From Mesotaenium endlicherianum (Eukaryota), in contig WELA01001939.1 of the NCBI GenBank assembly GCA_009602735.1, forward strand, positions 422,846 to 486,845: 64,000 bases of DNA, in the 5' to 3' direction. This document shows, piece after piece, positions 8,454-53,435 of the stretch (position 1 is its first letter; each line of letters begins with the position of its first letter). The notes below the pieces were generated by a model. That model worked only from the letters and a program-made list of their open reading frames with translations, was not told the origin of the DNA and searched no databases. The position numbers were made by a program, and so were the translations under genes.

Positions 8454-8992
8454 TGTAGTGATTTGAGTTATTATATGTTAGTTTGCAAATATTTTAATGT
8501 TTCCGAATATATTTGGAGTAGTATTGTGTGGATTCAAGTATGAATAGGTACTCTAGTGACTTGGTTCATGTCCTTTGAACCTTCTAAGGCATTTTCAAAG
8601 TTAGAGGAAAGACCTAGAAGAACTCCACGTGGCAAAAGTCAAATGTGCCATTTTAGGTCAAAAGGACATGTGCACATTATTCTAGAAAGAGGTGGCAAGT
8701 TTTGGGATGTGTTGGGTGCCAACACATCAACACACACCTTCCTATAAATTACTTATGTAGCAAGTACATAAACAAGAGCTAGAACATAGAAAGACATTCC
8801 AGAGCCACTCTTGTACTTGCCAAAATCCAGAAATATATTAACTTTCAAGAAGCCATCTCTCTTTCAAGAAGCTACCACTTGTGTTCAAAGATCCTTGTCT
8901 TGAATAGATAAAGTATTATATTTCACTAAGTACTTTATCTATCTGTTTCACTACAGTGGTATCGGAGCTAGGCACTTTGGTAGCACAAGAAG

Positions 8993-10273: not shown

Positions 10274-13200
10274 GCCAGGAGCCTACCACCCCAAGACCCA
10301 CTTCACGAGAAGGCAACACGCCAAGTGAGGTGGAGACCCCCGTTGAAGACGACGTTCCAGCCCCAATGAGTTTGAGAGGTAACCTTGGAGGAGAGAAGGT
10401 CCACATCTTGGTGGATAGCGGAGCTCAAGGCAACTTCATCGCTGCAGATTTTGCCACCAAGCACGGAATTACTATGCGAACTCTTGACCACGACGAGGAG
10501 ATTATGATGCCCGCCAAATTCTCTTATACTACCGCTTCCAAGAAGACGTACTCCTTGTTATACTCTATCAAGTTCTTCAAGGATAGAGTGGTGTTCTCCC
10601 CCATGCAATTGGGCAAGTACGACGTCATCCTAGGGACGCCTTGGTTGACCAAGCACAACACCCAAGTTGATTAGAGAGACGGTACTATCAAGATCAAGAA
10701 TGACATCACTTCAAGAATCTGTATTTTGCGCGCAATCCAGAATATTCAGACCCAAGACATCAAGAAGCCAGCACACGAGATACTATTGTCCACCCTCCAA
10801 CTCAAGAGACTTGTGAGGAAGGGACACGAGCTTCTTTTGACCTCGATCACGCCAAAAGACATCAAGAAAGACATTGAGAGTCAAGAAGGCAGCCCCATTC
10901 CCATGGAGATACAAGAAGTCTTAGAGGACTACAAAGAAGTATTCTCCCCGGAATTGCCCAAGGGCTTACCCCCCAAGAGATTCGTAGACCACAAGATAGA
11001 GTTGGAGCCCGGAAGCAAGCCCATCTCTCGACCTACGTTCAAAATGTCATACACGGAGCTAGACGAAGTCAAGAAGCAAATCAAGGAGCTACTGGAGCAT
11101 GGTTTCATTCGACCTAGCCAGTCGCCATTTGGAGCCCCGGTGCTATTTGTCAAGAAGAAAGATGGTACCTTGAGGATGTGTGTGGACTATCGCGCCCTCA
11201 ACAAGATCACCATCAAAACTCGATACCCACTGCCGCGCATGGATGAGCTTATGGACCGGCTGGTTGGAGCCAAGTACTTCACGAAGGTGGACTTGAGAAG
11301 CAGCTACCACCAGATTCGCATCGCTGAACCTGACATAGAGAAGACGGCGTTCAGGACAAGATATGGACATTTTGAGTTCATGGTCCTGCCATTTGGACTC
11401 ACCAACGCGCCAGCAACTTTCATGACTATGATGAACACCATATTTTAGCGCATTATGGACAAATGTGTGGTGGTATTCATCGATGACATCCTTATCTACA
11501 GCAAGACCCTTGAAGAGCATGCGAGACACTTGAAAGAAGTCCTTGAAGTATTGAAGCAAAACAAGCTATTTGCGAAGGAGTCAAAGTGCGAGTTTGCCAA
11601 ACAAGAAGTGGAGTTCCTAGGTCTCCACGTGACTGCTGATGGCATCAAGATAGACCCCAAGAAGACCACGGTGGTGGAGGAATGGCCAACCCCCACGACC
11701 AAGAAAGAACTCCAGTCATTCTTGGGATTTGCCAATTGGTACAGAAAATTCATCCAAGGCTTCTCGCACATAGCAGCCCCCCTGACAGATCTACTCAAGA
11801 AGGACAGGCTATATACATGGACCGAGAAAGAGGAAGAGGCATTTCAAGAGTTAAAGCGAAGATTGACCACATCCCCGGTGCTCACACTCCCAAGTCCAAA
11901 CCCAGATTGGCCCTTCCACGTCATCACCGATGCATCTTCCTATGCAATAGGAGCAATCCTGCTTCAAGACCAAGGCAAGGGACTGCAGCCCATTGCCTAC
12001 GAGTCTAAGAAGCTAAATCCAGCCGAGCAAAACTATACAACCACGGAGCGAGAGGCATTGGCGATTATTCATGCCTTGAAGGTTTGGCGCTGCTACGTTG
12101 AAGGACGCAAAATGCTGGTCACTACGGACCACGAAGCGTTGAAGCACCTCCAGACGCAGCCGTATCTCTCAAGGAGACAAGCAAGATGGAGCGGATACTT
12201 GCAACAATACAACATCACGATTCAGTACCAGCCCGGCAAGACAAACCCGGCTGACCCCCTCTCAAGACTGCAATTAAATGCAGTGATGGTATCCCTGAAG
12301 ACAGATCTGGAAGCTCGATTTTCAGCCGCCTATGAAAGAGACCCTTACTACAAGAACGGAGAAGCAGCCTTGGACCCATGCAAGAAGCAAGAAGGCAATT
12401 ATTGGGTGAGGCAAGATACGGGCCAGAGATGTGTTCCTAATGACTTAGACCTCCGGCTCTTGCTTCTACGAGAAGCACACGACAACCCTCTTGGAGGACA
12501 CTTTGGAATCCTAAGGACCACGGGCGTTCTAGCCAGGACTTATTGCTGGCCAGGCATGTCTAAGCAAGTCAAGGAGTACTGCAGGAGCTGTGACACATGC
12601 CAAAGAATCAAGCCATCATCGCAAAAGGCGGGAGGACTCCTCCAACCACTACCAATCCTCGAAAGACAATGGACGGACATCTCAATGGACCTTGTCGTGG
12701 ACTTGCCCGTGACACTTCGAGGCCGTAATGCAATACTCACGGTGGTGGATAGACTTACCAAGATGGCTCAATTTATTCCCACGACGACTAAGGCCACAGC
12801 ACCTGTAGTGATTTGAGTTATTATATATTACTTTGCATATATTTTAATGTTTTCAAATATATTTGGAGAAGTATTGTGTGGAGTTAAGTGTGAATAGGTA
12901 CTCTAGTAACTTGGTTCATGTCCTTTGAACCTTCCAAGGCATTTTCGAAGTTAGAGGAAGGACCTAGAAGAACTCCATGTGGCAAAAGTCANNNNNNNNN
13001 NNNNNNNNNNNNNNNNNNNNNNNNNNNNNNNNNNNNNNNNNNNNNNNNNNNNNNNNNNNNNNNNNNNNNNNNNNNNNNNNNNNNNNNNNNNNNNNNNNNN
13101 NNNNNNNNNNNNNNNNNNNNNNNNNNNNNNNNNNNNNNNNNNNNNNNNNNNNNNNNNNNNNNNNNNNNNNNNNNNNNNNNNNNNNNNNNNNNNNNNNNNN

Positions 13201-14266
13201 NNNNNNNNNNNNNNNNCAGAGCCACTCTTGTACTTGCCAAAATCCAGAAATATATTAACTTTCAAGAAGCCATCTCTCTTTCAAGAAGCTACCACTTGTG
13301 TTCAAAGATCCTTGTCTTGAATAAAGTATTCTATTTCACTAAGTACTTTATCTATCTGTTTCACTACAGCACCACAACTTGCAAGACTCATCCTTGACAA
13401 CATCTTCCGACTCCATGGACTACCATCAAGAATTGTGTCGGATAGAGATCCAAGATTCACAAGCCATTTTTGGAAAAATCTTTTCAAGAACTTGGGTATA
13501 TCGCTGGATATGTCCACTGCCTACCACCCGCAATCAGATGGGCAAACCAAGAGTATGAATCGTACCTTGAAGACCTCTCTAAAGGCCTACGTGCCTACTC
13601 TGGAGCAAGATTAGGACATGTACTTGACCTTCCTGGAGTTTGCCTACAACAACACGACGCAGGCCTCTACCCAAGAGTCCCATTCATCCTCAACTATGGC
13701 TTCCATCCAACCACGCCGCTGTGCTTCACGGCTGGCCATGATGAAGTACTTGCAGCCACAAATTTTGTGGAGACATTAGAACAGCCCTTGCAGCAGCCAA
13801 GAAAGCTCTACAACACGCGCAAGATGCTCAAGCAAGAGTGGCAAACAGGTCCAGGAGAGAAATTACGTATAGAGTGGGTGACAACGTGTTATTATCATCC
13901 AAGAATATTTCCTTGAACAACACGCCTGCCGGCAGCAAGTTCTCTCCCAAGTATTTGGGACCCTTCAAGACTATCCAGCAAGTCAACCCCGTTGCTTTCA
14001 AGCTAGAACTTCCCCAAACTATGCACATTGACCCCATATTCCACGCTTCCCTCTTCAAGCCATATGTGCAACCCAACAACAAGTTCCCAGGACGTGTGAC
14101 AACTCCACTAGCCCCAACAATAGTGGATGGTCATTTGGAGTACAAAGTGGAAGACATAGTGGCTATCAAAAATTTCAGGAGACAGCAGCAATACTTGATC
14201 AAGTGGAAAGGATATCCAGATTCTAAGAATAGTTGGGTGGCGGCGCACTACCTTGACAAAGTTTAG
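10252..14266 (+). pseudogene. pol: Disrupted pol of element A (PR-RT-RH-IN-chromodomain)
   Basis: LVDSGA protease, FIDD RT, TDAS RNase H, HHCC integrase, chromodomain EYKVEDI...YLIKWKGY. TAG stops at 10672 and 11446, LTR insertion at 12804, and further lesions downstream. Confidence 0.92.
12804..13368 (+). mobile_element. Family A LTR (probably solo) inserted in the integrase of element A
   Basis: TGTAGTG...CACTACA, TSD GCACC (12799-12803 / 13369-13373). An internal N gap means a collapsed full element cannot be excluded. Confidence 0.88.
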
Positions 14267-15179
14267 AGAAAGTTGAAGCGCTTCCATGCCGCCAATCCCC
14301 ATCTTGGACCAGCCCCAAGTCTGTATATTAGAAGCCTAAAAACTTTGGGGAGGCAGCCTGCCACCATCAAGAAGCAGCAGTAGACCCCTTGGAGGCAGCC
14401 TGTAATGAATCAGTATATTAGTAGATATAATATTCATTTAAATATAATAGTTAATTTAGTTCAGCCTGCTAAACTTTAGTTAGTAGTCAGTCTGCTGAAC
14501 TTTAGTTAATAATCAGTCTGCTGGACTTTACATAATTATCAGTTTAATGACTCGACCAAAAGCAGCAGGCTGAAGTCAACTTAAGTCAGCTTGCTGACAC
14601 ATTCTTTGACAGCCAGCTGACTTCCGTGCTCGGCAGCAGCGAACTGCCTTGATATGCATCTAAGTACCACCTGCTAGATGAATGGCCAGATGACATCCCC
14701 ATGATGGATGGCTATTCGGGATGATGGGAGATGGCGGTGGATTTGGTTAACCGAGGTCCTACCAACGTGGTTAACTCCCGGGTAGGCGGTGCCATCGCAC
14801 TGACCGTTGAACAGTAAACTCATTCCATGTACATATGCTAGGCATTGCTCTCGAGTTCGGCATTCGGAAACGAGGCCAACTCTCTTGTACAGCTTACTGA
14901 GAGAACTCTGAATCCAAGGCGAGAAGCCATTGATACGCACTGTCTTCTAACCTTGCTTATGTATGAGTTTACTGATTTGCATCATTGATGCTAGTTTACT
15001 CGCATTTGACTTACGAGTATTATTCCCTGCTAGTGTATTGTCCTTTGCCGTTTAACTAGTTAACGGAAATACCATAAAGATTACTTGCTGATATAAAGAT
15101 CTTTATTAATTGTTAATCGCCTATTTGGTAAGTCGATTCATTTCAGTGGTATCGGAGCAGTTATCACAGTCTTCTTTGT

Positions 15180-16658
15180 ATGGTAAGGACAAGGTCTCAA
15201 ACTAGCAACTCCCGAGACATGGAGAACCAGGATAACGAGAATGTCGAAAACCAGGCGGAAAGCCATGTAGCGGGAAACCGTACCTATTCGGAAGCAGTAG
15301 CGGATACTGCAGCTAGGGAGGCTGCAGATGAGGCAGCTGCTATTGCCTCAGTCGCAGCTCAGCAAGCTGAGGAGGAGATAGCCAGACTAGAAGCTGAACA
15401 AGTAGCAAAGGCCGCTGAAGATATACAAAGGAGGGAAGGACAGCCAGCTGACGAGCGCACTGTTGAAGAACTTATGGCATCAAGGGCCAATGTTCTGAAC
15501 CCACCTCCTGCCGTACAACTCAATGTACCCCTAGGTCAAATACGTGACCGGCTGAATGCGGCAGGAATTGCTGCTGCAGGAGCAAGAGGGATTGTTGAGG
15601 ACACTACTCAGCGAGTAGATGCCAATGCTGCTGCTGCATTTGCTAATCTACCACCCCAAAATGTAGACTTGGGAGCATTGTTCGTTCAGATGCAGTCGCA
15701 AATGGCGACCATGTATCAGTCCCAGCAGGAGGACAAAAGAATCATAATGTCCCTACTCCGGGACAGAGACCAACTGGGGTCTCACACCACTAGTGGTGGT
15801 GGCCGAGGGCCTAGTAAGCCCAAGCCGAAACCTCCCCAGGACTATGATCCTGAGGGAAACAGAAAATATTACCTGATCAAGTTTCTCGCGGATGTTGAGC
15901 AGTGGCTGGAGAACTACCCAGAACTGCAAGATTACGAGAAGGTCAGGCACACCGGTGCGCTACTGAAAGGCAGTGCCGCAGACTGGTGGCTTTACTGGAA
16001 GGAAGAGCGTAAGGCTCGGCAACTCGGTGACCCTACGTGGGTAGAGTTTGTCGAGAAGTTGCATGAGAAGTTTGATGTCATCAACCAGCAGGAGAAAGCT
16101 ATCTATGCGATGATCTCCCTGACACTGAAGCAGACCACTTCAGTTGCTGAGTTTGCTCAAAAGTTCCAAGAGAACATGATGAAGCAGCCTGATTTGCCAG
16201 AACGGTATAGGATAGCATACTTCAGGTATGGCTTGAAATCCGAGGTCTCTGGTCATTTTGCTGAGAAAAAGTATGAGAAACTGGCTGACTTGATCCAGGA
16301 TGCTGACGCCTGGGATCAGCAGCAGTTCAATCACAAGCGCCAGAGTAACGCTTTGGTGTCTAAGATTGTCAAAAAGCCCCACGGTTCCTACAATGCAGTT
16401 GAAGGAGACCAGGCTGAGGATAATCAGGGTGATGAATATGAGTATGAGTACAATGCTATTCAGTCTAGAGGTAGAGGTGGTCCCTCTCGAGGTGGCTATG
16501 GAAGGGGTGGTGGTAGGACTAAGCCGAGACCAGCCTCAGCAAAATCTACTTGCTACCATTGTCAGCAGAAAGGCCACTACAGAGAACAGTGTCCGGTCAA
16601 GCACCTGCCTAAGGTCGAGAGAAAAGACCAGCCTTTAAAAGACAGCAACAGTCAGTAA
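15180..16658 (+). CDS. gag: Gag of element B
   Basis: 492 aa; gag core ([17 protein letters not shown]), RGG tract, zinc knuckle [14 protein letters not shown]. Confidence 0.95.
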
Positions 16659-16681
16659 TCCAGTCTACTGACTGTGAGGAT
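16634..16681 (+). promoter_or_regulatory. -1 ribosomal frameshift signal of element B
   Basis: Slippery heptamer T TTA AAA 16634-16640, 7-nt spacer, perfect 10-bp stem ACAGTCAGTA/TACTGACTGT; loop ATCC can pair with GGAT 16678-16681. The -1 frame is open into pol. Confidence 0.85.
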
Positions 16682-16726
16682 GCTAGAGATAGTGAGTCGT
16701 CACTAGCTGCCCTCGTAGCAGGTATT

Positions 16727-19700
16727 ATGGGTCCTGCTGAACTGGATTCACTATGCATGCCTGACAACCAGATAAAGGAGACCATCAGCAATATAGACGT
16801 CCAGAGAGTGCACACTCTGGATGCTCTTGTTCCACCTGATGTCCAACATTTCTTTGCTACGTCAGGAGAACAATGCGAAAGTCAGGAAAAGACAGTCCCC
16901 CCTATCCTACTGCATTGCATGATTGCAGGTAGGAAGGTGAGGGCATTTGTTGACGGAGGGGCGTCACATACTTTTATCCACAAGGACTTAGTTAAGCGGC
17001 TAAGGCTGCCTACTGTCACCCAAGGGAATAGAAAAATATTCCTTGGAGATGCCTCAAGTATCCCGGGAGGAGTTATAACCAAGCCTATTGAGGTCCAGTT
17101 AGGTTCTGGCATTGCAGTTCTAACTGAAACGCTTACATTTGAGGTACTCAACACTGGCTTTTATGATCTCGTGCTAGGCAGGTCCTGGCTTAATAGACAT
17201 CAAGCTGAAGTGTGTTGGAGCAGAGGTACAGTTAAAGTGAGAGGAGCCAGTGATGGGCAGACTGACTTGGCACCCACCAGTGCTCTTCCTCTTGTCCTGT
17301 GTGGATGGCAAATGAAGGAAAAGAAGAGGCTTCCAGAAGGATGCAAGTTGCTGAATGCAATGGAGTTCGTCAAAAGCTGGAACCAGAAGGAAGACAGAAT
17401 GTTCTGTCTGCTGCTAAGAGAGGTACCTCCTCAACCTGAAGAAGTGGTTGAGAAAAAGGTACACCCTCCGGAACACCCTACTGCTGCAAACATTGTTGCT
17501 CAGTACACGGATGTGTTTAATATGCCTCCAGGACTACCCCCTAAGCGGGAAGTAGATCATAGGATTGATTTATTACCTGGTAGCCAGCCACCCTGGCAAC
17601 GCACGTATGGCTTGTCTTATTTGGAGAGTGAGGAGTTGAAAACACAGATTGCAGAGCTGGAGGAAAATGGTTACATTTCTCCCAGTAAATCACCGTACGG
17701 CGCACCTATCCTATTTGTTAAGAAAAAGGATGGCAGTATGCGGATGTGTGTGGATTACAGAGCCCTGAACAGAATTACAGTAAAGAACAAGTATGCTTTA
17801 CCCAGAATCGAGGACTTGCTTGATACCCTGTCTGGCGCTAAGGTGTTCAGTAAGATAGATCTCAAGAGTGGTTATCATCAAATCAGAATTGCTGAGGGGG
17901 ATGAACACAAGACTGCTTTCCGCACACGTTATGGACACTATGAGTTCAACGTGATGCCATTTGGACTGACTAATGCTCCTGCTACCTTTATGGGTGCTAT
18001 GAATGACATTTTCAGACCTTATTTGGATAAGTTTGTGCAAGTTTTCCTGGATGATATTTTAATTTTCTCTAAAGATGAAGCTCAGCACACTGAACACTTA
18101 AAGAAAGTGCTGGACACTCTGCGGAAAAATCACTTGTATGCTAAAATGAGCAAGTGTGATTTCTTTAAGGAAAGTATTGAATTCTTAGGCCACGTTGTCA
18201 GTAAAGAGGGCATCAGTGTGGATCCTAAGAAAGTCCAGACCATAAGGGACTGGCCAGTACCACAGTCTGTCTCTGAAGTTAGATCCTTCCTCGGGTTGGC
18301 TAACTACTATAGGAGATTTATTGAGAATTATTCCACAAAGGCCAGTAAACTGACTGACCTTACTAAGAAAGACATCGGGTATGTGTGGGGGGAAGAGCAG
18401 CAGGCTGCCTTCCAGACCCTTAAAGATGCCCTTTGTTCTGCCCCAGTGCTAGCCGTGTATGACCCCAGCAAACCGGTGCAGGTGGTTACTGATGCCTCTG
18501 ATTTTGCCATGGGTGCTATTTTGTTGCAGCCTGCTGACAAAACCACAAAGGATGGTAAGGTACGGCAGGAGTGGCATCCTGTGTTGTATGAGTCTATGAA
18601 ATTTAATCCAGCGGAGATTAATTACTCAGTGCATGATAAAGAGCTGCTAGCTATCATTCATGTACTCAAACAGTGGAGAGCATACTTACATGGTAAAGCT
18701 TTTAAGGTGATTACAGATCATCTAGCTCTGACCCACTTTCAGAAGAAGTCCAAGCTGTCGAGGAGGGAGAACCGCTGGAGCCAGATGCTGGAGCAGTTCC
18801 AAGTCCAGATCGACTACAAACCAGGGAAGTTGAATCCTGCTGATGCACTCTCTAGAAGACCTGACTTGCAAGAAAGGAACTTTAGTCAGCATGCTGTAGA
18901 TAAAGTCCTGTGTGCACTCACTTCACTAAAGGTGAAAAAGTCCTTCCTTGAACAACTTAGGAAAGCCTACCTTTCTGACCCAACATTTGAGCCCAGCCCC
19001 ACTACTGGTATGTGTCGTGCTACCGCACTCGGGTATAAGCTCAAGGGAGGGGTCTGGGTGACTGAAACCACTTCAGGCAGGCTGAAGCTGGTCATTCCTA
19101 ATAATTTGGAAATAAGGTCTCTCTTACTGAGTCAAGCTCATGACAGTCTCCTGGGTGGACATTTGGGGCAGGCCAAAACTGTTGGCAAACTGGCAAAACA
19201 TTATCATTGGGAGGGGTTACCCCGGGAGGTCTTGAAATATGTCAAGTCCTGTGACCAGTGTCAGAGAAATAAGTCTCGGCACACACCACCCGGAGGTCTC
19301 TTGCAACCGCTACCCATCCCAGCGGGACGCTGGGAAACTATATCCATGGACTGGGTGGTCTCACTACCAAGAACTGCCAACGGGCATGATTCAATACTGG
19401 TAGTCGTGGATAAACTGACAAAAATGGTCATTTTTATCCCCACAACTGTCAAAGTGACTGCACTCGAAACAGCGAGACAGTTTTACAACCATGTAGTATG
19501 CCAACATGGGCTCCCTTCTAATATCATCTCAGACAGAGACTCAAAATTCACCTCTAAGTTCTGGAGAGCTTTAATGGGGTTAATGGGAGTCAAACAGCTG
19601 CTCAGCACAGCAAACCACCCTCAGACTGATGGGCAGACTGAAAGAACTAACCGAGTTCTGCAGGAGGTGCTGAGAGCATATATTAACCAAAAACAAGATA

Positions 19701-20443
19701 ATTGGGATGACCTGTTGCCTCAAATTCAGTTTGCGGTCAACAGTGCGGTGCACGCGTCAACGGGCAAAACTCCTTTTGAACTCAGCCTGGGTAGAGTCCC
19801 TAAGTCTCCTCTAGATGTGCTAGGGGAATCTTTAACTCACCCTGAAGGGATTGACAACCCGGTCTCCCTCCAGTTAACTCAGGAGTTTGCTGACACCCTG
19901 TCAGAAGTCCAACGAAACTTGCACACGGCCCAAGAAAACCAACAAAAATACGCTAATCAACACCGTCGGGAACTGACATTTTCCAAGGGGGATTTAGTCA
20001 AACTGCATTCTCAGCACCTGTACCTCCCTGGTGTGGTCAAGAAAAAGCTTGGCCCTGTCTGGGTCGGTCCATATTCGGTGGTCCGTCGTGTCGGTCAGAA
20101 TGCTTACAAACTGAACATGTCAGCTGAATACAAGGGGCACCCGGTCTTTAATGTCTCCTTCCTGGAACCGTACATCAAAGGTGATACACTGTTCACAGGT
20201 CGGTTCCCTGTCCAACCGGGACCGGTCCCCGCTGTCCGGGACGGCGACCCTGAGGAATATGAGGTCGATGAGATTTTAGACGCTCGCTCGGTCCGTCGAT
20301 CGTCTAAATATGTCATGAAATACCTCATTCGATGGAAGGGTTACGATGCCTCTGGGGACACTTGGGAGTTTAAGGACCACTTGACCAATGCCAAAGGGGC
20401 GTTGACACGGTTCCACCTTCGGGCCGCTGGAGTCCCTCCATAA
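16727..20443 (+). CDS. pol: Pol of element B (PR-RT-RH-IN-chromodomain); probably translated as a Gag-Pol fusion from 16634
   Basis: 1238 aa uninterrupted; FVDGGA, FLDD, TDAS, HHCC and DDE integrase, GPY motif, chromodomain EYEVDEIL...YLIRWKGY...DTWE. Confidence 0.97.
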
Positions 20444-20710
20444 CTGTCATTTCAGTTGACACGGGAAGGTGACAGGCGGTCCTGTCTCCATTTAAGTTGG
20501 AGGGGAAAATATATGACAGTTAGTGAGCGAGAGCGATAAAAACACACTCATACGTTTATGTGTAGCGCATCGCAACTACGTCAACTTTTAGCAATCATCC
20601 TGTAAGGTAAACAGCAGCGAAGCCACTATACTAAATACTAACATACTTCCTGCAATCCCTATGACAAAGGTCCATATCCTACTAACTTGTGCCCTGGTTA
20701 CATGTGCAGG

Positions 20711-22387
20711 ATGGCGCCCACCACACAAAAGGAGGACAGAAAGCGCAAGGCAGAAGAAGCCAGGAGGACAATGGAGCAATACCAGAAGGAGCTGGCGGCG
20801 ACGTCCCTCACCAGGAGAGAACAAGAAAGGGTCCGCAAACAACAAGAGGCGGCAGAAGAGGCACAGAGGAAGAAGGATCAGGAAGCGGAAAACCTCAGGA
20901 AGGCTGAGGAGGAGAGACAGAAGAAACAGCAAGAAGAAGCGGCAGCGGCAGAAGAGGAGAAAAGAAAAAAGATTGAAGCGGACAGACAGAAGAGCTTGGC
21001 CACTTACAGGTATACTGTGGTGGGTGGCCAAAACTTCGATAACCTGAAGGAAGCATTGCTGGCAGCCCAGGAGATCAACAGGCTGGAACAGACAACACTG
21101 CTACAGAAGGAAGGAGCTACAGCACTGGACAGGTACATCGAGACACACACCGGCGTGGTCCTTTACGAAGATTATGCTAAGATGGTGGGCTATACAGCAG
21201 AGCAGGCCCGGTATCTCGCAGATGATTCAGAGGACAAGCCGGTCCCCATACCGGGAATAGTGGGAGATCAGAGACTCATCCGGATGGTGAGCATGCGGCC
21301 CGATAGCTTTAAGGATACGGTATTCTACCTCACACTCCTGCCAGCTTACAATGAAGTTGAGAGAAGGAGCTGGGAGTACTTGGCCAGGGAAGCAGGACAG
21401 CAGATGTTCTCTCCCCACTGGTTCCCGTGTAAACTGAGGAAGGCTGAGCACGGACCCCAGTACTACCAGCAGCCAACAGACTGGAGGTGGATGACCGTCA
21501 CAAATAAGAAGCAGGAGTGTGACCGAGCCCAACCGGATGACTTCCACTATGGCCTAGACGGCTATCTCATCCTACCACCTCACATTGCCCCTTGGGACCC
21601 CAGGCTGAATGGATGCCTGAGCAATATGAATGCAGAGACCAAGGAACATAGGAGGAGGGGAAGAGACTACTTCTCTAAGGGAAAGCATGCCTTTGTCAAA
21701 TGGGCAAAGAATGCAGGCCGGATAGATATCAGTAGGCTGAAGGCCAAGCAACCTCCAGCGCGCCCTAAGAAAGGGAGGTCGGTAGACTACTCCATGTCTA
21801 CTAGGGAGCAGGACGACTTAGTGGACGAGACCCCTACTCTCTCCGAGGAGGAGGATGAGGAGGATGAGGAAGAAGAACAAGGCAGAGGAGAAGCATCAGC
21901 AGCAGGTACTCAGGATACCCAGGGACAGGCAGTGGCACTTCCTAAAGAACCACGATCAGGTGTGTGGAATGTGATCCCCGTTATGGCGACAACTGGACCC
22001 CGCGCTCGCTCCCCCAGCCCACCTGCCCAAGCAGGGGAAGAAGCTGATCTGACTGTACTGGGCAGCAGACACAGACAGAAATCCCCAGAGGACAGGGGTG
22101 CCAGAAGAGGGACACGCGGGTGGGCCAGAGGTATGCCAGCCTCCCCCTCCGCTCAGGGGCATGTACCTCTAGCCAATGTATTTCAGCATCCTACTGGAAT
22201 GCCTGTCTATGTGGGAATCAACACCCAAGTGGTTGAAGAGCAGGCCACCATCCTCCGTTCTCCTCGAGGGCCAACTTTAGAGCAAACAGGGTTCTTTAGA
22301 AGGCCAGCTGACAGACCTAGAGGGCTGTCCAGATCTAGGTCCAGATCTCCGTCTCCTGACCCTGAAGCCCCAGGAACAACCCCTTAA
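20711..22387 (+). CDS. Extra ORF3 of element B, unknown function (558 aa from ATG 20711)
   Basis: Long intact ORF between pol and the PPT, preceded by TACTAAC (20680) and a TGCAG acceptor (20709). Coiled-coil-like N terminus, aromatic-rich core, acidic tract, RS-rich tail; no obvious signal or transmembrane segment. Confidence 0.85.
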   Translation: MAPTTQKEDRKRKAEEARRTMEQYQKELAATSLTRREQERVRKQQEAAEEAQRKKDQEAENLRKAEEERQKKQQEEAAAAEEEKRKKIEADRQKSLATYRYTVVGGQNFDNLKEALLAAQEINRLEQTTLLQKEGATALDRYIETHTGVVLYEDYAKMVGYTAEQARYLADDSEDKPVPIPGIVGDQRLIRMVSMRPDSFKDTVFYLTLLPAYNEVERRSWEYLAREAGQQMFSPHWFPCKLRKAEHGPQYYQQPTDWRWMTVTNKKQECDRAQPDDFHYGLDGYLILPPHIAPWDPRLNGCLSNMNAETKEHRRRGRDYFSKGKHAFVKWAKNAGRIDISRLKAKQPPARPKKGRSVDYSMSTREQDDLVDETPTLSEEEDEEDEEEEQGRGEASAAGTQDTQGQAVALPKEPRSGVWNVIPVMATTGPRARSPSPPAQAGEEADLTVLGSRHRQKSPEDRGARRGTRGWARGMPASPSAQGHVPLANVFQHPTGMPVYVGINTQVVEEQATILRSPRGPTLEQTGFFRRPADRPRGLSRSRSRSPSPDPEAPGTTP

Positions 22388-23862
22388 GGTGACACGCTGA
22401 AGAGGCAGTCAGTAAGGGAGGCTGGTCAGGTTCAGTTCCCTTATTTAAAATTTCTGCAGTTTAATGTTGTCGAGGCGACAACAAGTTAAGTTGGAGGGAT
22501 TGTAATGAATCAGTATATTAGTGGATATAATATTCATTTAAATATAATAGTTAATTAAGTTCAGCCTGCTGAACTTTAGTTAATAGTCAGTCTGCTGGAC
22601 TTTACATAATTATCAGTTTGCTGACTCAGTCGAAAGCAGCAGGCTGAAAGTCCATATAAGTCAGCTTGCTGACACATTCTTTGACAGCAAGCTGACTTCC
22701 GTACTCGGTAGCAGCGAACTGCCTTGATATGCATCTAAGTGCGATATGCTAGATGAATGGCCAGATGACATCCCTATGATGGATGGCTATTCGGGATGAT
22801 GGGAGATGGCGGTGGATTTGGTTAACCGAGGTCCTACCAACGTGGTTAACTCCCGGGTAGGCGGTGCCATCGCACTGACCGTTGAACAGTAAACTCATTC
22901 CATGTACATATGCTAGGCATTGCTCTCGAGTTCGGCATTCGGAAACGAGGCCAACTCTCTTGTACAGCTTACTGAGAGAGATCTGAATCCAAGGCGAGAA
23001 GCCATTGATACGCACTGTCTTCTAACCTTGCTTATGTATGAGTTTACTGATTTGCATTATTAATGCTAGTTTACTCTCATTTGACTGACGAGTAGTATTC
23101 CCTGCTAGTGTATTGTCCTTTGCCGTTTAACGAGTTAACGGAAATACCATAAAGATTACTTGCTGATATAAAGATCTTTATTAATTGTTAATCGCCTATT
23201 TGGTAAGTCGATTCATTTCACAGCCTGCAAGAACAAGAAAGAGGAAAAAATGACATTAGACACTCGTCTCTTCTCGCAGTTTCTGAACAGAAAACTAAAA
23301 CTGCTACTGGTGATAGGTCTCTGTATAATAAATTCTGAAAATTTACCTGGCTGTAGTCCATGAGTAGCCGGTCATCATTTAGAGTCCAAGTTTGCTCAAT
23401 TTGGAGCACTGGTGAGAGAGATATGATGCTCTAAGTAGAAGGGGGTCAGGCTGCTGGCATTATTAGGACAGAATATGCCTTTTGACATTGTGCCCTCCCC
23501 TGAACTTGGAATGCTCTGAAACTCAAGACACTGGTAGAACATCTTACAACGCCCATTTTGAAACTTACTTTGCAGAATTTGGACAAGTATAGAAGAACTT
23601 ATGATTTTCAGAAGTTTCTGCACAGATTTGGAAGAGTGCCTACTCTCTCAGCTCTCAACGACACTCCAGAAATTAGAATGCTCTCAAATTTGGTGACCCG
23701 GTAAAGTTCTCCGACGCGGTCTGTCTGGCACTAGAATTTTAGATTTGAAGCAGTTTTGTGGACGCTATGAAGTTTTGAATTTGTGGCAGATTCTAGGCCA
23801 AGTTGTACAATTTTCTTTATCATCAAGGAGTAGGCTAGCCAATAAGGTCACACCACCCAATA

Positions 23863-24150
23863 ATGTGCACATTATTCTAGAAAGAGGTGGCAAGTTTTGG
23901 GATGTGTTGGGTGCCAACACATCAATATACACCTTCCTAGAAATTACTTATTTAGCAAAAATATAAATAAGAGCTAGAACATAGAAAGACATTCCAGAAT
24001 CACTCTTATACATACCAAATTCCAGAAATACATTAACTTTCAAGAAGTCATCTTTCTTTCAAGAAGCTACCACTTGTGTACAAAGATCCTTGTTTTGAAT
24101 AGATAAAGTATTCTATTTTACTAAGTACTTTATCTATCTGTTTCACTACA
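23863..24150 (+). mobile_element. 5'-truncated family A LTR
   Basis: Matches 8668-8955 and ends CACTACA. Not followed by the CTTGA TSD of element A. Confidence 0.85.
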
Positions 24151-24257: not shown

Positions 24258-26394
24258 CACTAGATAGCCCAAGCTAATACACACTTTTTGGTGCAAATAT
24301 AGCATAAGCTTGCTATTTTTTTGAACTCTTAATAGTACTCCAATGATGTCTTGAGACATAGATTTGGAAAGGTATAAGTCTCACCATTCTGGTCATATAA
24401 CTTTTTTTTTTAAATAAATTTGATGAATTATTAATTGAATGTAAAGACAAGTGAACACGATCGCCTATTTTTTGTCAATTTTCAAGAACCTCTTGGGGCT
24501 AGCTCTTACAACTCCAAGCATTTGGATTTTGGCCAGAGGTGGCTACACATGTTCTTAGAGGATGTACCAAATTTCAGACATCTAGTCAAAGTATCTTATG
24601 AGATACAATTTTTATCGAAGTTGCTCTCTAATATGCGACGCTTTTTTTTTTGGGTGCATTTAGAAGCCAAAAGTGTGAAATGGCTAAATGAATTGTTGTG
24701 AAATCAAAGTAGGAGTTCATAAATCCATAATTTGACCACATCTTATTCATTGCATAAGGATATTAATTTATTTATTTTTTTAATTTTAAAATATTAAGAA
24801 ATGAATGAATGCAATTAATATTTCACTTTTACCTATAAACTACACAAATCACATGTTTATAGAAAGTACAAAATTCAAAATGTCAACTAAGCATAAGGCA
24901 TCTAACACACTCTTGGACACAAACACATGGCATCATACATCTTACTTCATAAGAGAATTGCACCATTTGAAGTCATGCTAAAAAGTCGTCGATATGCTAT
25001 TCCTTTGCCCTCACCTCTCGTGTAGGACCTACATCCAAGTGGTCTATAGCTAGGCAAAGTTATAGGCCCCTTCTGAAGCTTTTTCCAAAAGTGCTTTAGA
25101 CTGGGAAGAGCATGCAGGCCCATAGCTATGCACAAACCATGAAACACAACAATTTCAGTGGTCGTGCAAGGAATCCAGCCCCTAACATTATGCTCAGCTG
25201 CATATGCATTAGTCTCTCTAGCTAGCTGGTCAAAGAGCCACATGGGCATGAATAAGCACAACACGCTAAAGGGGGACAGACCTCTAAAATTCTTGGCCGA
25301 GATGCCTTGAAGCCCATGGTGATGGTCACTAGAGGGCTTCAATAACATGTCCTCATATGTCTCTCCAGGGGCAGCCTCCCTCCAGCTCCATTCTTCAAGG
25401 AGCTCCTCAGCAACTCCATTGTCTTCTTGCATGCTTAGGGGTAGCACCTGTGCATCCTCCTCGTCCGAATCAGATTCTGAACTTTCGGCCTCAATGGCAG
25501 TGCCTGCATCACTTTCAGAGTCCAGAACTTTGGACTTTCTTTTTTCTTTCCTATCTGCTGCTGTCTGTGCTTGTTTGAACTTGCTCCTTTGTGCAGGAGT
25601 TGTTATCCTACTCACACCTAAAGGCCTCCCCCTCTTTCTCTTCTCGGCCACAGACGAAAGTTCCTCACTCTCATCAAGTTCCTCATCAGGCAAGGATAAC
25701 TCTAGTCTAAGAGGAACAAGCGGGCCTGCCGAATCAGGCTGTGAGGGCTGGCTGTCAGGCACACATGATACTTTCTTCTTATACGCACCCGCGGCTAAAC
25801 ATTGCTCAAACCCGTTGTCGGCGTTAAGATGACCCTCTACAAACTCAGCAGTAAACTTTACCTTTGTCCCATCATACTCAAACAAGACTTGAAAGAGAGT
25901 GTCATCCTTCTTCCCCTTCATTTCTTTCTTTACCTCTCCTCTCAAAAACACTTGTTCACATTCATCACCGAATTGCTCATATGCCCATACTCGTTCGAAA
26001 TAAACTGAACTCACAAATATGTACAACCCTAGCATAGGACTCCTAGAACTCTCTCCTACAGCCATGGCGGACGAATTCAAGAAGAGCGACAAAGAAGAAG
26101 GAAGAAGCAGTTGCTGTCAGTCGTGGAAAACTGCAATTCGAACAGACATTGAACAGGCGAAATTGATTTCAATCCAGATTTTGGATCGTACGTTTTCACC
26201 TGTACCTTTGTCTGTACTCGTCGATTTTGTTTGCGAATTTAATCGCAGAATCCTTGCGATGTTCCCAATCGTTTGAACCTAATTCTGTAAAAAATGATTA
26301 AATATACGTAAAATGCTAGCCTAAACCAGGGAGCTCTCGAAATGCACCAAAATATGTGTGTTGCACCAAATGTGGTTCAATGGGCTATCTAGTG
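24258..26394 (-). mobile_element. piggyBac-like DNA transposon 1, internally deleted
   Basis: Perfect 14-bp TIR CACTAGATAGCCCA / TGGGCTATCTAGTG, 4-bp TSD TTAT, subterminal TGCACCAAA repeats. The host LTR sequence resumes on both sides. Confidence 0.92.
24947..26065 (-). pseudogene. Truncated piggyBac transposase (N-terminal half; catalytic DDD region deleted)
   Basis: PFSVLCLFMP...LARETNAYA...W...TTTEIVVFHGLCIAMGL..LPSLKHFW is the start of the piggyBac DDE_Tnp_1_7 domain; similarity ends after GPITLP. Confidence 0.85.
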
Positions 26395-29300: not shown

Positions 29301-31366
29301 GGCAAACATTGGGATCACATAGACTCAACCGATGACAATGGGCAAATTCAATATAGCTCAAAAGTAAGTTCCTCTCTAGGGGCACATACATGGCACCTAT
29401 TCCATTGCAGCAAGCACTTAGCAAGCCAATAACAACAGAGTGCATAAATCATGGGTAAGACTTTCGCACTGTAACCCCAAGCTAGCAAGAAGAATGTTTG
29501 TGCATCAGACTGAACAAGATCATTCAAGCCATGCATTGCGAGAACGTCCATAATGTCGATGGTCTCTTCTGTCTTTACTTGGGTGTGCATAATCAATCTA
29601 TTACAGCAGGGCCCATTTTACACCTGCTCTATGGTATGCTAACGGCTATCCACTACCTCTAGCACCCGGGATGCAAATTCCATACTCGCGACGCATATAC
29701 GATGCATCTTGCATGCTACCTAGCATGCGTCTCTAGCGAGCTCAATTAGCTGCAAGGCCGGCAAAAACTTAGCACATTGCTAATATGCCCACATCGTCCC
29801 TATGACAAAGACGCAACCTTCCTTACACTTGACCAAGTGTACAGGTGGCATCCAAAATATACAGCCAACTGGACCTAAGACAAGTAGTCAAACTCCCTCT
29901 AGTATCCACGTTGACTTCACATACAACAGTCAACATACCGTACAGAGCCAAGTCTCGATATGCTGATTTATCTGAATCTTGCGCTGGCTCCAACAAGCCA
30001 CAATCCCATAGTAAGACATGCCAAACACCAAGCATGGCAACACCCAAAGCTCATTCAACTTCGGCACTCAAAGTACTCATGAACCGCGGCTGCTCTCGAA
30101 CACTTAACCCTTTATAAGCCATGAAAAATAAAAGAGTGTCAAAGGAAAACCCTTGCGTCCATAAACCCAAGCCCTTAACACTAGGTGTACCACAATCCAT
30201 ATATGGATCTAGATCCATTTATGGTTTCATATTGGCCTCTTTTTCTATGGCCATTTTTTACTAGAATTGATAACTTTTTCAAAAAAAAAAATGCAGCGGA
30301 CGGTCGGCTATAAGGTCAAGATAGTGGGCAAAATCAACCATCCTTGATTCGCCCAAGTATAGCACCTCTTATCGCAAAAAATTGAGAAGTACAAGTCAGT
30401 TTTTTTGATATTTATCCTTTTTTTTGTTCATTTCTTGCAAAATTTTTAGCCATGGCTGACACTCCGGACACCGTAGTGCTCGAAAATGTTAGCGAAGGCA
30501 CCCAAATTTTGGTATTTTGCCAGTTCTGGGGTCCTAAGTGGGCCAGAACAGCTTTTGGGGAGGGTTACAATGAAATTTACTTGTTGGGAAGGTTAAATCA
30601 AGAGGTGAAGGGGAAAGATAAGAAGTTTGCATAGAAAGTCTTTTTCGAGTTTGACAAGGACAACAAAATATAGGACCCAGTTGTTGTCAGATTGTATTTG
30701 CCTAAAATACCAGAGATTTGGTGGGTTACTCTCAAACCAAGAGTTATTAGGATCAGCAAGACCACTGCAAATCCACCTTGAAGTCTTGCAAACAAAGTGG
30801 ATGAGTTAGACTTACCTTTGGAGATTTTGGCTGCAAATCACAGGGCACAAATGAAGAAGCAAAAAAGGTTAGAAGCTCAAAGGCTAACAGCACAACAAGC
30901 AAGAGCAAGCACATCAAGAGGCAAGAAGGATCATTATGTTCAGCAGCAGCAGCAGGAAGAGGGAGAGGAGGATGAGGAGGAGGAGGAGGAGGATGAAGAC
31001 TCTGAAGAGGAGGAGCAAGAGGAGGAGGAGGTGCTAAGGAAAAGGGGCAGGCCCTCTAAGCAGAGGGTAATAGACATGAGTGTCCCAGAGTTTAGGAAGG
31101 AGAAGAAAGCCAGAAAGACAAAGCTAAGATTAGAAGCAGGGAAGGCAGCCAGGAAGTCTTACAGGAGGAAGGTAGCTGTGGACTTTGATGCGTCGGAACA
31201 TGAGTCAGATACTGACTTGGAGCTGGAGAACAATCCTCTGGATGAAGCTGATGAGCCTGAGAGTGTGCTGCATGACTTGGATGACACACCTTCCGACAGG
31301 TTTGCCCCGGTGAGCAGTTTGACTGGTTGAAGAAGCCAGTGCCTCCTCCATCTACAAGTCTGCAGA

Positions 31367-34300
31367 TGTAATGAATCAATTCATTATTTATTTAATTAAT
31401 TACATATATAAACATAACACTTAATTAATTGCATATATAAACATAACACTAAATAAGTATTATGTCTATATACTCACATGTGCGAGTTCATCTAAATGAA
31501 TGTATGTCGATGTAATGCGAGTTTACTTACTTTGTCAAAAAGGTCAGCAGGATGACTTTTGTACCATAGTGTAGTTTGCTGACTTTGTTGAAAAGGTCAG
31601 CAGGATGACTTTTGTATCATAGTATAGTTTGCTGAGATTTATATATCAGTTATATATAGGATATAATATCAGTAGGTTGACATATAGTAAGCTCGCTTGA
31701 TATTAGTCAATATACTTAGCTTCAGTACGCTGAGGATAGACATATTCATTTAGATTGTTATTTGTAGATTGGCACATGTGACCGTAGTATACTGAAAGTC
31801 GGGAGGTCGACTGAGATTCGGTAAACCGATGTCCTACCAGTGTGGTTAACTCCTGGGTAGGCGGAGCCGTCGTCAGTCAACCGACCAATTAATATGGTCG
31901 TTATACCTAGATCCGTGGGTCCCAACTTAACGGGTTTCCCACGAAACGGCGCACCTTGCGCCGTGGTCAACCAGGTGGTCACTAGGTACATAGCAGGCTG
32001 GGATCTCGTGGTCCCTCATTCTGGACAGTAGGCTTTACAGTGGGATTTCTACTTGCAAGTGATGTGTGCACTTTTTGGGTTCGTTCTAATTACCAGCCTT
32101 CACGGAAATTGACATGGCTGCTTCGTTTGCGCTCCAAATGGAGCGAACTAGGACTTTTCGGAAAGGTCTCGTCAAGATGCATCCGTTGTTGTTGAGTTTG
32201 CGCAATTTAAAGTAGTATTGACAGAGTTATGCCCTCTGACATTTTGGGGCCACGCAGCGGACAGATTCCATGGTTTTTGCACCCAAGTCAGTGGGATGTG
32301 TTTGAGCTACTTTATGGTCATCTGAATGAGAGCGCCTTTGCTATTCATTCCCCTGATGTTGTGTATGTGCTTACACATGCTTGGATGCCTGGTAGGCAAG
32401 AGGTCATGAGTTTCTAAAGGAGAAGCTCTAGTCCTCACATTCGCCTCTTTCTTGTGCCTTGTATTCGCGTGCAACTATGGCACACTACGATAAGTGAGTC
32501 AAGGGTTATAGATGAGTAAACGGAATTCATTATAAGGGCGAAGATTGCTCCCTGATTTCACACGCTTCCACCTATCTCTGGTCTTTTATATTTAAATGAA
32601 ATATATTAATCTTGAAATAGCAAGATTCATTTCAGTGGTATCGGAGCTGAAGTCCTTCTTGAATGTCCGTGCTCGTCTTCTTTGTCTCAGGAGGAAAGTG
32701 TGTGACGCTTACTTGTGTGGTATGATGAGTCTAGGTGGAGCTTGGGGAAGTGTACGATGTAGAGCATTGTACATCCTGTCCAGGATCCTTCCACTTGCTC
32801 ACCTAGAGTGTCTCCGGGCTCAATGTACTATGCGGCATACTAACTTGACTTTCCTAGCCTCTTGTGTACGGATCCACGCATGGAGAAGCCTAAAGTGGAG
32901 GCTTGATGGACGAGGTGTCTGCAAGCATCAAGGGCAGCCTCAAGGGAGTTGCATCATAGCAAGCTGGATATGACTCATTTACCTCCCTTGATCATGTCGT
33001 TGTGTGTTGTTCTATGCAATCCACGGCGAGCATAGAGAGGGGTGTGCACTCCAGCGGTGCTAGAGGACTTGTTAGTCTGTTGTGCTAACCCTTCGGGTTT
33101 AAGCTTGTTGCTTTGCAAGAGACGTACCTCTCTCATTATGTGTGTGGTAGCTAGGTTGAGGGAGCTTGGATATGGCTGCATGTGTTGAGCAATTGAGACA
33201 GTGCGTGCACACATGATTTACTAACTTAAGTTTTCAAGTATGGATTACGACAAGTTTTCGTCGCCACGGTCCAAGTGCACTACGTCGTCCACAAGCTTCA
33301 GCATGCTGCAACTTCTATGAGAAGAGGCTTCCATAGCAACAATGGCATCCTACAGATACCCTCTATTCCCAACCATGGCTGTGACATTGTGTGCTCCTCT
33401 CGTTTGCCACATTGACGTGGGCTGGAAGGTTTAGGGTATGTGCCTTGTGCTTGAATGCTATGTGTGAGACGGTGCTTTGGTGGTACTTGATGGGATCGTA
33501 GGAGCTTGGGGTTTAAGCTTAAGATAAGTCTAGTCAGTGTGCAGAGGCTTTTGGATGCGGATCTTATGTGATTGCCTAAGTTGGTCTGCTGGATTATTTG
33601 ACCCAATGTGGTTAAAAGGGTTTAAGAGCTTGGGTGTATGGACGCAAGGACTTTCCTTTAACTCTCTTTAGTTTGCATGACCTATTAAAGGTTAAGTGTC
33701 CGAGAGCAGCCGCGATCAATGAGTACTTTGAGTGGTTGAGCTGAACGAGCTCTTGGTGTCGCCATGCTTGGTGCGTGACATGTCTTACTGTGGGATTGTG
33801 GCTCGCCGGAGCTAGCGAGATAATCAGATAAGATGAGCATATCGAGACTTGGGTCTGTACGGTGTGTTGACTGACGTATGGAAAGTCAACGTGGATACTA
33901 GAGGGGGTTTGACTACTTGTAGTGAAACGGATAGATAAAGTACTTAGTAAAACAGAATACTTTATCTATTCAAGACAAGGATCTTTGAACACAAGTGGTA
34001 GCTTCTTGAAAGAGAGATGGCTTCTTGAAAGTTAATATATTTCTGGATTTTGGCAAATACAAGAGTGATTCTCGAATGTCTTTCTATGTTCTAGCTCTTG
34101 TTTATATACTTGCTACATAAGTAATTTCTAGGAAGGTGTATGTTGATGTGTTGGCACCCAACACATCCCAAAACTTGCCACCTCTTTCTAGAATAATGTA
34201 CACATGTCCTTTTGACCTAAAAATGGCACATCTGACTTTTGCCACATGGAGTTCTTCTAGGTCTTTCCTCTAACTTCGAAAATGCCTTGGAAGGTTCAAA

Positions 34301-44935: not shown

Positions 44936-45784
44936 CCCCAGGTATCAGGAGGCCATCAGACAGGAAAAGGAGATCCAGTTCCAAGTCTCGTTCTCTAGAA
45001 GATAGAGTCCCTAATACTTAGTTTGCTGTTCTTTTTGTTTAGAATCAGTTGGTTGTGTTGCATGTGTGTTACCTTGTTGTAGGTAATAGTAAGAAGTGTT
45101 GTCAAGTCGACAACAAATTAAGTTGGAGGGTTTGGAATATTAAGTCTGCTGGATATTTAACACTTAGTAAATGACTTAGCCGAGAGCAGCAGGCTGAAGT
45201 CAATTAGGTCAGCCTATTGACTAAGGTCAGCTTGCTGACACATTCTTTGACAGTCAGCTGACTGCCGTACTCGGTAGCAGCGAACTGCCTAGTTATGTAT
45301 CTAAGTGTGGTGTGCTAGATGAGTGGCCAGATGACACCCTTGAGGTGGATGGCGATTCGGGATGATGGGAGATGGCTGTGGATTTGGTTAGCCGAGGTCC
45401 TACCAACGTGGTGAACTCCCGGGTAGGCGGTGCCATCGCACTTGCCGTTGAACAGTAAACTTATTCCATGTACATATGCTAGGTATTGCCCTCGAGTTGG
45501 CATCCAAAAACGAGGCCAACTCTCTTGTATTGCTTACTGAGAGATATCTGAATCCAAGGCGAGAAGTCATTGATACGCACTGTTTTCTAGCCTTGCTTAT
45601 GTATGAGTTTATTGATTGCATTATTGATGCTAGTTTACTTGCATTTGACTTGCGAGTATTGTTCACTGCTAGTGGGTTGTCTTTTTCAGTTTAATCAGTT
45701 AACAGAAAATACCATAAAGATCACTCGCTGATATAAAGATGTTCATTAATTATTAATCGCCTATTGGTAAGTCGATTCATTTCA
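44936..45784 (+). mobile_element. 3' end of a family B' element: ORF3 tail remnant, hairpin-PPT and 3' LTR (45133-45784, internal deletion near its 5' end)
   Basis: RRPSDRKRRSSSKSRS resembles the ORF3 tail RRPADRPRGLSRSRSRS; TGTTGTC..GACAACA hairpin plus TTAAGTTGGAGGG; LTR ends ATTCATTTCA. Confidence 0.85.

Positions 45785-53360: not shown

Positions 53361-53435
<75 letters not shown>

What the first reader, a model, noticed from the sequence alone, without database searches (positions are those of the whole stretch)
20636..22387. Chromovirus with a large non-Env third ORF behind a perfect branch point and splice acceptor
Seen: an intact 558-aa ORF in the env position. TACTAAC at 20680 (another at 20636), TGCAG at 20709 and ATG two bases later. 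Candidate donors are G|GTAAGT in the LTR U5 (15128; also present in the B' LTR) and AAG|GTAAAC (20607). The protein has a basic NLS-like start (RKRK), coiled coil, W/Y-rich core, acidic tract and RS tail, with no transmembrane segment. A diverged tail remnant in B' (44936-45017) shows it is a family feature. Known: chromoviruses normally carry only gag-pol. Inference: a spliced subgenomic mRNA makes a nuclear accessory protein, e.g. an RNA-processing/export factor or silencing suppressor.
Basis: partly seen in the sequence, partly recalled or inferred. Interest (0 to 1): 0.85.

Follow-up and report, generated by a model that had tools for sequence, protein, structure and literature searches.

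The report
Orphan third gene in algal retrotransposon
An intact jumping gene, likely from a green alga, carries a large third reading frame with no known relatives that is likely made from a spliced RNA and is predicted to be a nuclear helper protein, in a branch of these elements where a published survey lists no such extra gene.

Summary
Observation confirmed. Window 14401-23220 is a complete Ty3/gypsy chromovirus (LTRs, 5-bp target duplication, gag, overlapping pol ending in a chromodomain). Between pol and the 3' LTR lies a sense 558-codon ORF (20711-22387), with TACTAAC 24 nt before a TGCAG acceptor placed one base before the ATG (7 of 20,000 simulations). The ORF looks like a real, family-wide gene: codon-position bias above all 66 non-coding control windows, CpG depletion like gag and pol, near-identical contigs in the one contig set laid, and a frame-preserving tail relic in a sister element with 85%-alike LTRs. 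It has no transmembrane segment and no homolog in any search; folding failed. Splicing is not shown: four runs gave no joint at the acceptor, but barely covered it. A second polypurine tract before the ORF hints at capture by recombination and possibly an internal promoter. Best guess: a nuclear accessory protein working like CERV or Rev (about 0.3); real gene about 0.8; acceptor used about 0.55.

The parts
14396..14400 (+). 5-bp target-site duplication, left copy (same five letters at 23221-23225)
14401..15145 (+). 5' LTR (TG...CA); donor-like GTAAGT at 15128; TATA-like word at 15092
15147..15164 (+). primer-binding site starting TGGTATC (tRNA-Met type; label recalled, not from a call)
15180..16658 (+). 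gag, 492 aa (Ty3_capsid, Retrotrans_gag, zinc knuckle)
16613..20443 (+). pol frame, open from 16613, overlapping the gag end in the -1 frame; TTTAAAA slippery-like word at about 16635 and a stem-loop behind it; protease, RT, RNase H, integrase, SH3, chromodomain
20470..20505 (+). internal hairpin plus polypurine tract, same 11-letter core as the terminal tract
20607..20612 (+). candidate local splice donor (would give a 103-nt intron)
   Evidence: use not shown
20636..20642 (+). first TACTAAC
20680..20709 (+). second TACTAAC, AG-free spacer and TGCAG candidate acceptor
20711..22387 (+). ORF3, 558 aa, no homolog found, no transmembrane segment
22466..22500 (+). terminal hairpin plus polypurine tract
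22501..23220 (+). 3' LTR
44938..45021 (+). 27-codon relic of an ORF3-like tail in a sister element (cut off on its left by another LTR), followed by tract and an LTR 85% like this one (45136-45784)

Best explanation
A complete chromovirus retrotransposon carries a third, same-strand 558-codon reading frame with no known relatives, which is likely translated from a spliced RNA and is predicted to give a nuclear accessory protein that would help the element's own unspliced RNA leave the nucleus. Shown: the element, the frame, the acceptor-like signal, the lack of a membrane segment. Inferred: (1) the frame is a maintained gene (about 0.8); (2) splicing to 20710 removes the upstream ATGs at 20661 (other frame) and 20702 and puts the ATG at 20711 first (about 0.55; donor either in the LTR at 15128 or local at 20607); (3) the basic N-terminus, coiled stretch and RS tail make an oligomeric nuclear RNA factor; (4) because a strong acceptor marks the genome-length RNA as unfinished, the protein would license its export or set the spliced-to-unspliced ratio, as CERV does for Cer1 and Rev for lentiviruses. 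Steps 3 and 4 rest on composition and analogy only.
For: Frame far beyond chance. Base-by-codon-position chi-square 30.1 for the core against 64.9 (gag), 42.4 (pol) and at most 13.8 in 66 overlapping non-coding windows. CpG observed/expected 0.39, like gag 0.48 and pol 0.42, unlike 0.75 in hand-picked host exons. Run X1's contigs cover 20447-21922 with 2 other letters and one gap (at 20633, before the ORF) and 21965-22215 with none, at word depth 29 and 19 against 32-49 on gag-pol; none of the 6 indels listed for the four runs lies in the ORF. Sister relic: 24 aligned codons, 13 same residue (6 by a silent change), differences 5/8/14 by codon position, a 3-codon gap, stop 113 versus 114 nt from the LTR. 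Branch point plus YAG at the ORF start: 7 of 20,000 simulations. Precedent: CERV, 517 aa, spliced mRNA, KRKK signal, leucine zipper, needed for genomic RNA export (PMC10309623, abstract and one results section).
Against: No spliced read: the only joint listed in four runs is 19917-20207, and RNA depth over 20623-21164 was 0 in X10 and X13 and under 2 in X16, with 6-24% of each run read. The same branch-point-plus-YAG pattern occurs at two other places of the window, both copies of one non-coding site, and the pattern was chosen after seeing it. None of 4 readable host acceptors picked by eye has TACTAAC in the 45 nt before it. No RNA-binding or other domain found; both folds failed (pLDDT 34 and 36). 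The RS run is short. This copy's internal part is within about 1% of X1's contigs, so its intact frame alone says little about selection, and X1 may stem from the window's own source. The relic alignment was driven by the protein, which favours silent changes.
Confidence: 0.3

Rival explanations
1. ORF3 is a real nuclear accessory protein but acts on chromatin or silencing: a sequence-specific anti-silencing factor or transactivator of the element's LTR, in the manner proposed for Tekay and Grande extra ORFs and shown for VANDAL DNA transposons.
For: Same evidence for a real gene; basic N-terminus plus an acidic tract suit a DNA- or histone-engaging protein. The element is CpG-depleted, so it likely faces methylation. 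Tekay 5' extra ORFs have nuclear signals, coils and long disorder and were proposed to modulate silencing (PMC11728184, passages); Grande GENE23 is nuclear (PMC7264820, main text).
Against: No DNA-binding or dsRNA-binding family hit; gives no role to the RS tail.
Confidence: 0.25
2. ORF3 is expressed from its own promoter just behind the internal polypurine tract (a relic LTR start), with at most a short 103-nt leader intron (20607-20709); no LTR-driven subgenomic RNA exists. This concerns expression and is compatible with either function.
For: Second hairpin-plus-tract at 20470-20505. Reads of X16 (7) and one X1 contig leave the window at 20505 into a repeat-like sequence that shares a 12-letter word with 20514-20525, as a sister element with its LTR directly behind pol would. 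TATA-like words at 20510 and 20536; the local donor keeps A at -3 before the ATG, the LTR donor gives T. X16 depth on one strand rises from 0.3 to 1.9 at 20623. Grande's extra gene has its own promoter (PMC7264820).
Against: Only 30 letters of the loose end are seen, so it may be a variant spacer, not an LTR. The depth step is a handful of reads. A 15-codon upstream frame from 20558 would remain in the leader (read).
Confidence: 0.3
3. ORF3 is a passenger: a captured stretch of host or other mobile DNA, with its old acceptor, copied along by a young family and of no use to it.
For: The internal tract suggests the block was added behind a former element end. An acceptor before the first codon is what a captured exon would carry. 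Its GC (0.55) and fourfold-site make-up differ from gag and pol of this element. Almost no RNA seen. No host genome was at hand to look for a source gene.
Against: No homolog among 1.84 billion representatives, unusual for a host gene core; 1.7 kb without an intron while the host gene at 47677-55730 has short exons (by eye); CpG depletion; frame-preserving relic in a sister with 85%-alike LTRs.
Confidence: 0.18
4. ORF3 is a particle or movement partner (cytoplasmic scaffold for Gag, inclusion-body or cell-to-cell helper), the role usually guessed for plant env-like frames.
For: Env position and an env-like splice arrangement, as in barley Bagy2 (PMC7264820); long coiled stretch.
Against: No transmembrane segment or signal-like hydrophobic start; basic nuclear-signal-like motif.
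Confidence: 0.12

Closest known systems
Plant LTR-retrotransposon extra ORFs, sense and 3' of pol (eORF-3'F of Neumann et al. 2019, PMC6317226), including those of Tekay chromoviruses
   Same: Position, orientation, size over 250 codons, mostly no known domain (only 21.4% of such proteins had one). Found in 18% of 782 Tekay elements.
   Different: None listed for Chlamyvir (44), Tcn1 (1,500), Galadriel (270), Reina (708) or CRM (736) in that table; this element's RT falls outside the flowering-plant cluster and its chromodomain seems to keep the aromatic cage. No sequence link to any of them found; their sequences (Additional files 1 and 3) were too large to read here.
CERV of Cer1 (C. elegans Ty3/gypsy), PMC10309623
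   Same: Large lineage-restricted protein from a spliced mRNA, basic nuclear signal, coiled region, no recognised RNA-binding motif.
   Different: CERV shares exons with gag and has predicted H, M and G-like domains; ORF3 is a single frame behind pol. No homology tested or expected; likeness is functional and hypothetical.
Env-like genes of Athila, Bagy2, SIRE and insect errantiviruses
   Same: Same place in the genome; a splice acceptor just before the frame (shown for Bagy2 per PMC7264820).
   Different: No transmembrane helix; chromovirus, not Athila/Tat or copia.
REM1 of Chlamydomonas and Boty of Botrytis
   Same: Algal or fungal gypsy elements with a further frame near the 3' end.
   Different: REM1's is a truncated integrase and chromodomain in reverse frame (PMC2774666, passage); Boty's is antisense (PMC7264820).

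Membership tests
Ty3/gypsy chromovirus | LTRs with TG...CA ends, target duplication, primer site and polypurine tract | tested here: met
Ty3/gypsy chromovirus | order gag, protease, RT, RNase H, integrase | tested here: met
Ty3/gypsy chromovirus | chromodomain at the integrase end | tested here: met
   PF00385, E 2e-08, above its cut-off
Chlamyvir or Tcn1 clade | RT-RNase H falls in the clade with named reference elements | tested here: inconclusive
   Quick tree of 82 rows (81 of 120 hits kept for length): groups (support 90, open fork, long branch) with Closterium, Nannochloris and unnamed metagenome proteins, apart from the flowering-plant cluster; no named clade references in the tree
Chlamyvir or Tcn1 clade | aromatic cage in the chromodomain; priming type | tested here: inconclusive
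   Y, W and W/Y positions seen by eye (positions recalled); tRNA-type primer site fits Chlamyvir better, overlapping gag/pol fits Tcn1 better
eORF-3'F (Neumann definition) | at least 250 codons, sense, downstream of the polyprotein, not made of tandem repeats over 150 bp | tested here: met
   (only a 23-bp repeat inside the ORF)
Env-like protein | transmembrane helix or signal peptide | tested here: not met
   highest hydropathy window 0.73
Env-like protein | expression from a spliced subgenomic RNA | tested here: inconclusive
   no joint listed, coverage near zero
Rev/CERV-like export factor | nuclear location, binding to genomic RNA, needed for its export | not testable with these tools
   needs bench work
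Rev/CERV-like export factor | sequence or fold likeness to a known export factor | tested here: inconclusive
   no sequence hit; models too poor for a fold search

The most novel reading that the evidence does not exclude
A green-lineage chromovirus has independently become a 'complex' retroelement: it splices out gag-pol to make a new-fold nuclear regulator that controls export of its own genome-length RNA, a plant-side counterpart of Rev and CERV, and coding-dead relatives in the same window may borrow it in trans.
Probability: 0.2. Interest if true: 0.85.

Novelty: new variant of a known kind. Interest (0 to 1): 0.52.

Why it matters
Thousands of extra ORFs are catalogued in plant LTR retrotransposons and their function is an open question (PMC6317226, PMC7264820). 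This one is large, globular in part, without relatives, in a young intact element with a testable splice signal, and in a chromovirus branch where the survey lists none. If it proves to be an export or anti-silencing factor it would show retroviral-style regulation arising in an algal chromovirus and supply a new protein family. If it is a passenger, it is one more captured frame.

Tried and rejected
Homologs of ORF3: none at E 0.01 among 3,491 candidates of 306-977 aa, none at E 1 among 1,398 candidates of 138-440 aa, none at E 0.001 among 1.84 billion representatives, none in metagenome contigs (81 and 588 pattern matches) or viral contigs (5). Pfam: only sub-threshold hits, Borrelia_P83 on the coiled part and Obc1_C (E 0.0006 on an 86-aa piece, 19.2 bits against a cut-off of 27; no such structure hit), rejected. 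PDB: one hit at E 1. PHROGs and NCBIfam: nothing under E 0.2. ESM Atlas: best 0.85 and 0.90, unnamed fungal-rich clusters and unrelated families, leads only. AlphaFold without alignment failed twice, so no fold search was run. Rfam: 0 matches. Sequencing runs: no RNA holder listed. No whole genome held, so copy number, host source gene and dN/dS stay open; the 40 differences shown (414 more not shown) include none in ORF3. A third donor-like site at 15183, right behind the gag ATG, would join out of frame with ORF3 and was set aside. Likeness of the spacer to the same place in the coding-dead family was not significant (62 of 300 shuffles). LTR divergence as a clock was rejected: 28 clustered substitutions in about 720 letters would leave all three frames open with a joint chance near 0.003, and X1's contigs carry the 3' LTR letter at seven of these places. 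An 18-read loose end at 22133 in X13 resembles a diverged ORF3 tail, but its frame could not be settled from 30 letters. The bacterial promoter scan does not apply. Earlier findings: none by place or sequence, one unrelated by words. Paper searches for a described case; none describes a sense third ORF in an algal chromovirus, but the library lacks most subscription papers, among them Steinbauerova et al. 2011, seen only as cited.

Full report
The element. The finding lies in a complete LTR retrotransposon at 14401-23220. Its LTRs (14401-15145, 22501-23220) start TG and end CA, and the same five letters flank both ends. A primer site follows the 5' LTR. Gag (492 aa) and pol carry the Ty3/gypsy domains in the gypsy order, with a chromodomain at the end. 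The pol frame is open from 16613 and overlaps the gag end in the -1 frame, with a slippery-like heptamer and a stem-loop behind it, so gag-pol is likely made by frameshifting. The best RT-RNase H relatives are about 60% identical and mostly unnamed. In a quick tree of 82 rows the element sits on a long branch in a weakly supported group with Closterium, Nannochloris and metagenome proteins, apart from flowering-plant elements. With the Phi_1 gene and an intron-rich RRM-like gene nearby (by eye) this points to a green alga or early plant as host; that is inference.

The observation. The frame is 581 codons stop to stop against at most 365 in 1,000 simulations and is not made of tandem repeats. 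TACTAAC at 20680 has its branch A 24 nt before the AG at 20709, with no AG between, and the ATG follows after one base. Such a pair at the end of the spacer arose in 7 of 20,000 simulations, two TACTAAC in 26. Against this, the pattern was picked after the fact, it also occurs at two places of a non-coding family in the window, and 0 of 4 readable host acceptors have TACTAAC, although they share the GCAG|G end. Two ATGs lie between the local donor and the acceptor (20661, out of frame and overlapping; 20702, in frame); splicing would remove them, which gives the signal a purpose.

Is ORF3 a gene? Its core shows codon-position bias above all 66 non-coding control windows, and its CpG depletion matches gag and pol, not the host exons. 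Nine of 19 listed runs, from four studies and three organism labels, hold 72-87% of the sampled words of 20440-22500; one may be the window's source. Only one of them (X1, contigs) was laid: its long pieces match ORF3 almost letter for letter at a depth a little below gag-pol, and no listed indel falls in the frame. X1's even depth looks like DNA, so this says the family majority carries ORF3, not that it is transcribed. The sister relic at 44938-45021 keeps frame, stop position and a bias to third-position change over 24 codons. Together about 0.8 for a maintained gene. A proper dN/dS was not obtained.

Is it spliced? Three raw RNA runs (6, 13 and 24% read) and X1 gave one listed joint, inside pol, and none at 20710 (46 loose ends not shown). 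Reads over the first 450 nt of ORF3 were absent in two runs and a handful in the third. Most reads on the element were 90-99% alike, so they come from other copies. The test had little power; splicing stays at about 0.55 on sequence grounds.

An unreported feature. The 11-letter polypurine core that precedes the 3' LTR also stands at 20494, behind a hairpin, right after pol. Seven X16 reads and one X1 contig leave the window at 20505 into a sequence that shares a 12-letter word with 20514-20525. The simplest reading is that sister elements end there with their own LTR, and that this lineage gained ORF3 and its present LTR behind the old end, leaving a decayed LTR start that could act as a promoter. 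Only 30 letters were seen, so this is a lead. Two coding-dead elements of a related family (31367-38075 and a minus-strand one) also have two such tracts about 890 nt apart and keep the gag-pol junction (72% over 125 nt), so the internal tract could instead be a second plus-strand primer.

The protein. Residues 1-95 are charged and helix-like with RKRK at 10-13; 96-345 have the make-up of a folded domain; then come an acidic tract, a disordered part and a short RS run; nothing crosses a membrane. No search found a relative and both single-sequence folds failed. Function therefore rests on analogy. A retroelement with a strong acceptor must still export unspliced RNA; CERV solves that for Cer1 and has a similar outline (PMC10309623; abstract, outline and one results section read). 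I give this about 0.3, an anti-silencing or transactivating role 0.25, a passenger 0.18, a particle or movement role 0.12; the rest is unassigned. The internal-promoter rival concerns expression and overlaps these.

What is known. Neumann et al. (PMC6317226; passages and Additional files 4 and 5 read, files 1 and 3 too large to read and possibly holding rare cases) found extra ORFs in 3,372 gypsy elements, in 314 unrelated groups. Among chromoviruses only Tekay has entries (18% sense 3', 33% sense 5'); Chlamyvir and Tcn1 have none. Vicient and Casacuberta (PMC7264820; main text read) review sense and antisense frames and suggest accessory roles. Sunflower Tekay frames are 5' and predicted nuclear (PMC11728184, passages). 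PMC9289625, PMC4408406 and PMC2774666 were seen as passages. Nine paper searches found no description of a sense third gene in an algal chromovirus.

Verdict. A real feature and a new variant of a known kind: extra ORFs are common in plant gypsy elements and occur in one chromovirus clade, but this is an orphan, non-Env protein in another branch with a clean, testable expression signal. Interest 0.52; it would be about 0.85 if a Rev-like role were shown.

Noticed in passing
window 20470-20525: Second hairpin plus polypurine tract right after pol; reads of related elements leave here into a repeat-like sequence resembling the next window letters.
   Followed up: partly
window 16613-16720: Likely -1 frameshift site: slippery-like heptamer and a 12-pair stem-loop; this junction is the only coding piece kept by the coding-dead family.
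   Followed up: partly
window 31367-38075 and 24155-44935 (minus strand): Non-autonomous LTR family with about 1.27-kb LTRs, no long frame, two polypurine tracts, the same LTR ends and a shared 77-nt LTR block with the main element; the minus-strand copy cut the sister element's ORF3 tail.
   Followed up: partly
window 14401-15145 against 22501-23220: The two LTRs differ by 28 clustered substitutions although all frames are intact; suggests recombination or conversion, not age.
   Followed up: partly
window 8456-14400 and 23226-24150: Older, broken chromovirus of another family (44% pol identity) into whose 3' region the main element inserted; no third frame seen.
   Followed up: partly
window 24947-26065 (minus), 30851-31330 and about 38080-40500: piggyBac-like transposase pieces interrupted by LTR insertions; PF13843 hit on the first, the others by eye.
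   Followed up: no
window 3415-3590 and 47594-55730: RRM-type RNA-binding gene with short GC-rich exons at 47677-55730, and a decayed duplicate of its first exons near 3500.
   Followed up: no
window 19917-20207: Eight X13 reads skip 289 nt of integrase with non-canonical ends; probably a deleted copy.
   Followed up: no
window 59989-61161 (minus): Intronless Phi_1/EXORDIUM-like host gene, 390 aa.
   Followed up: no
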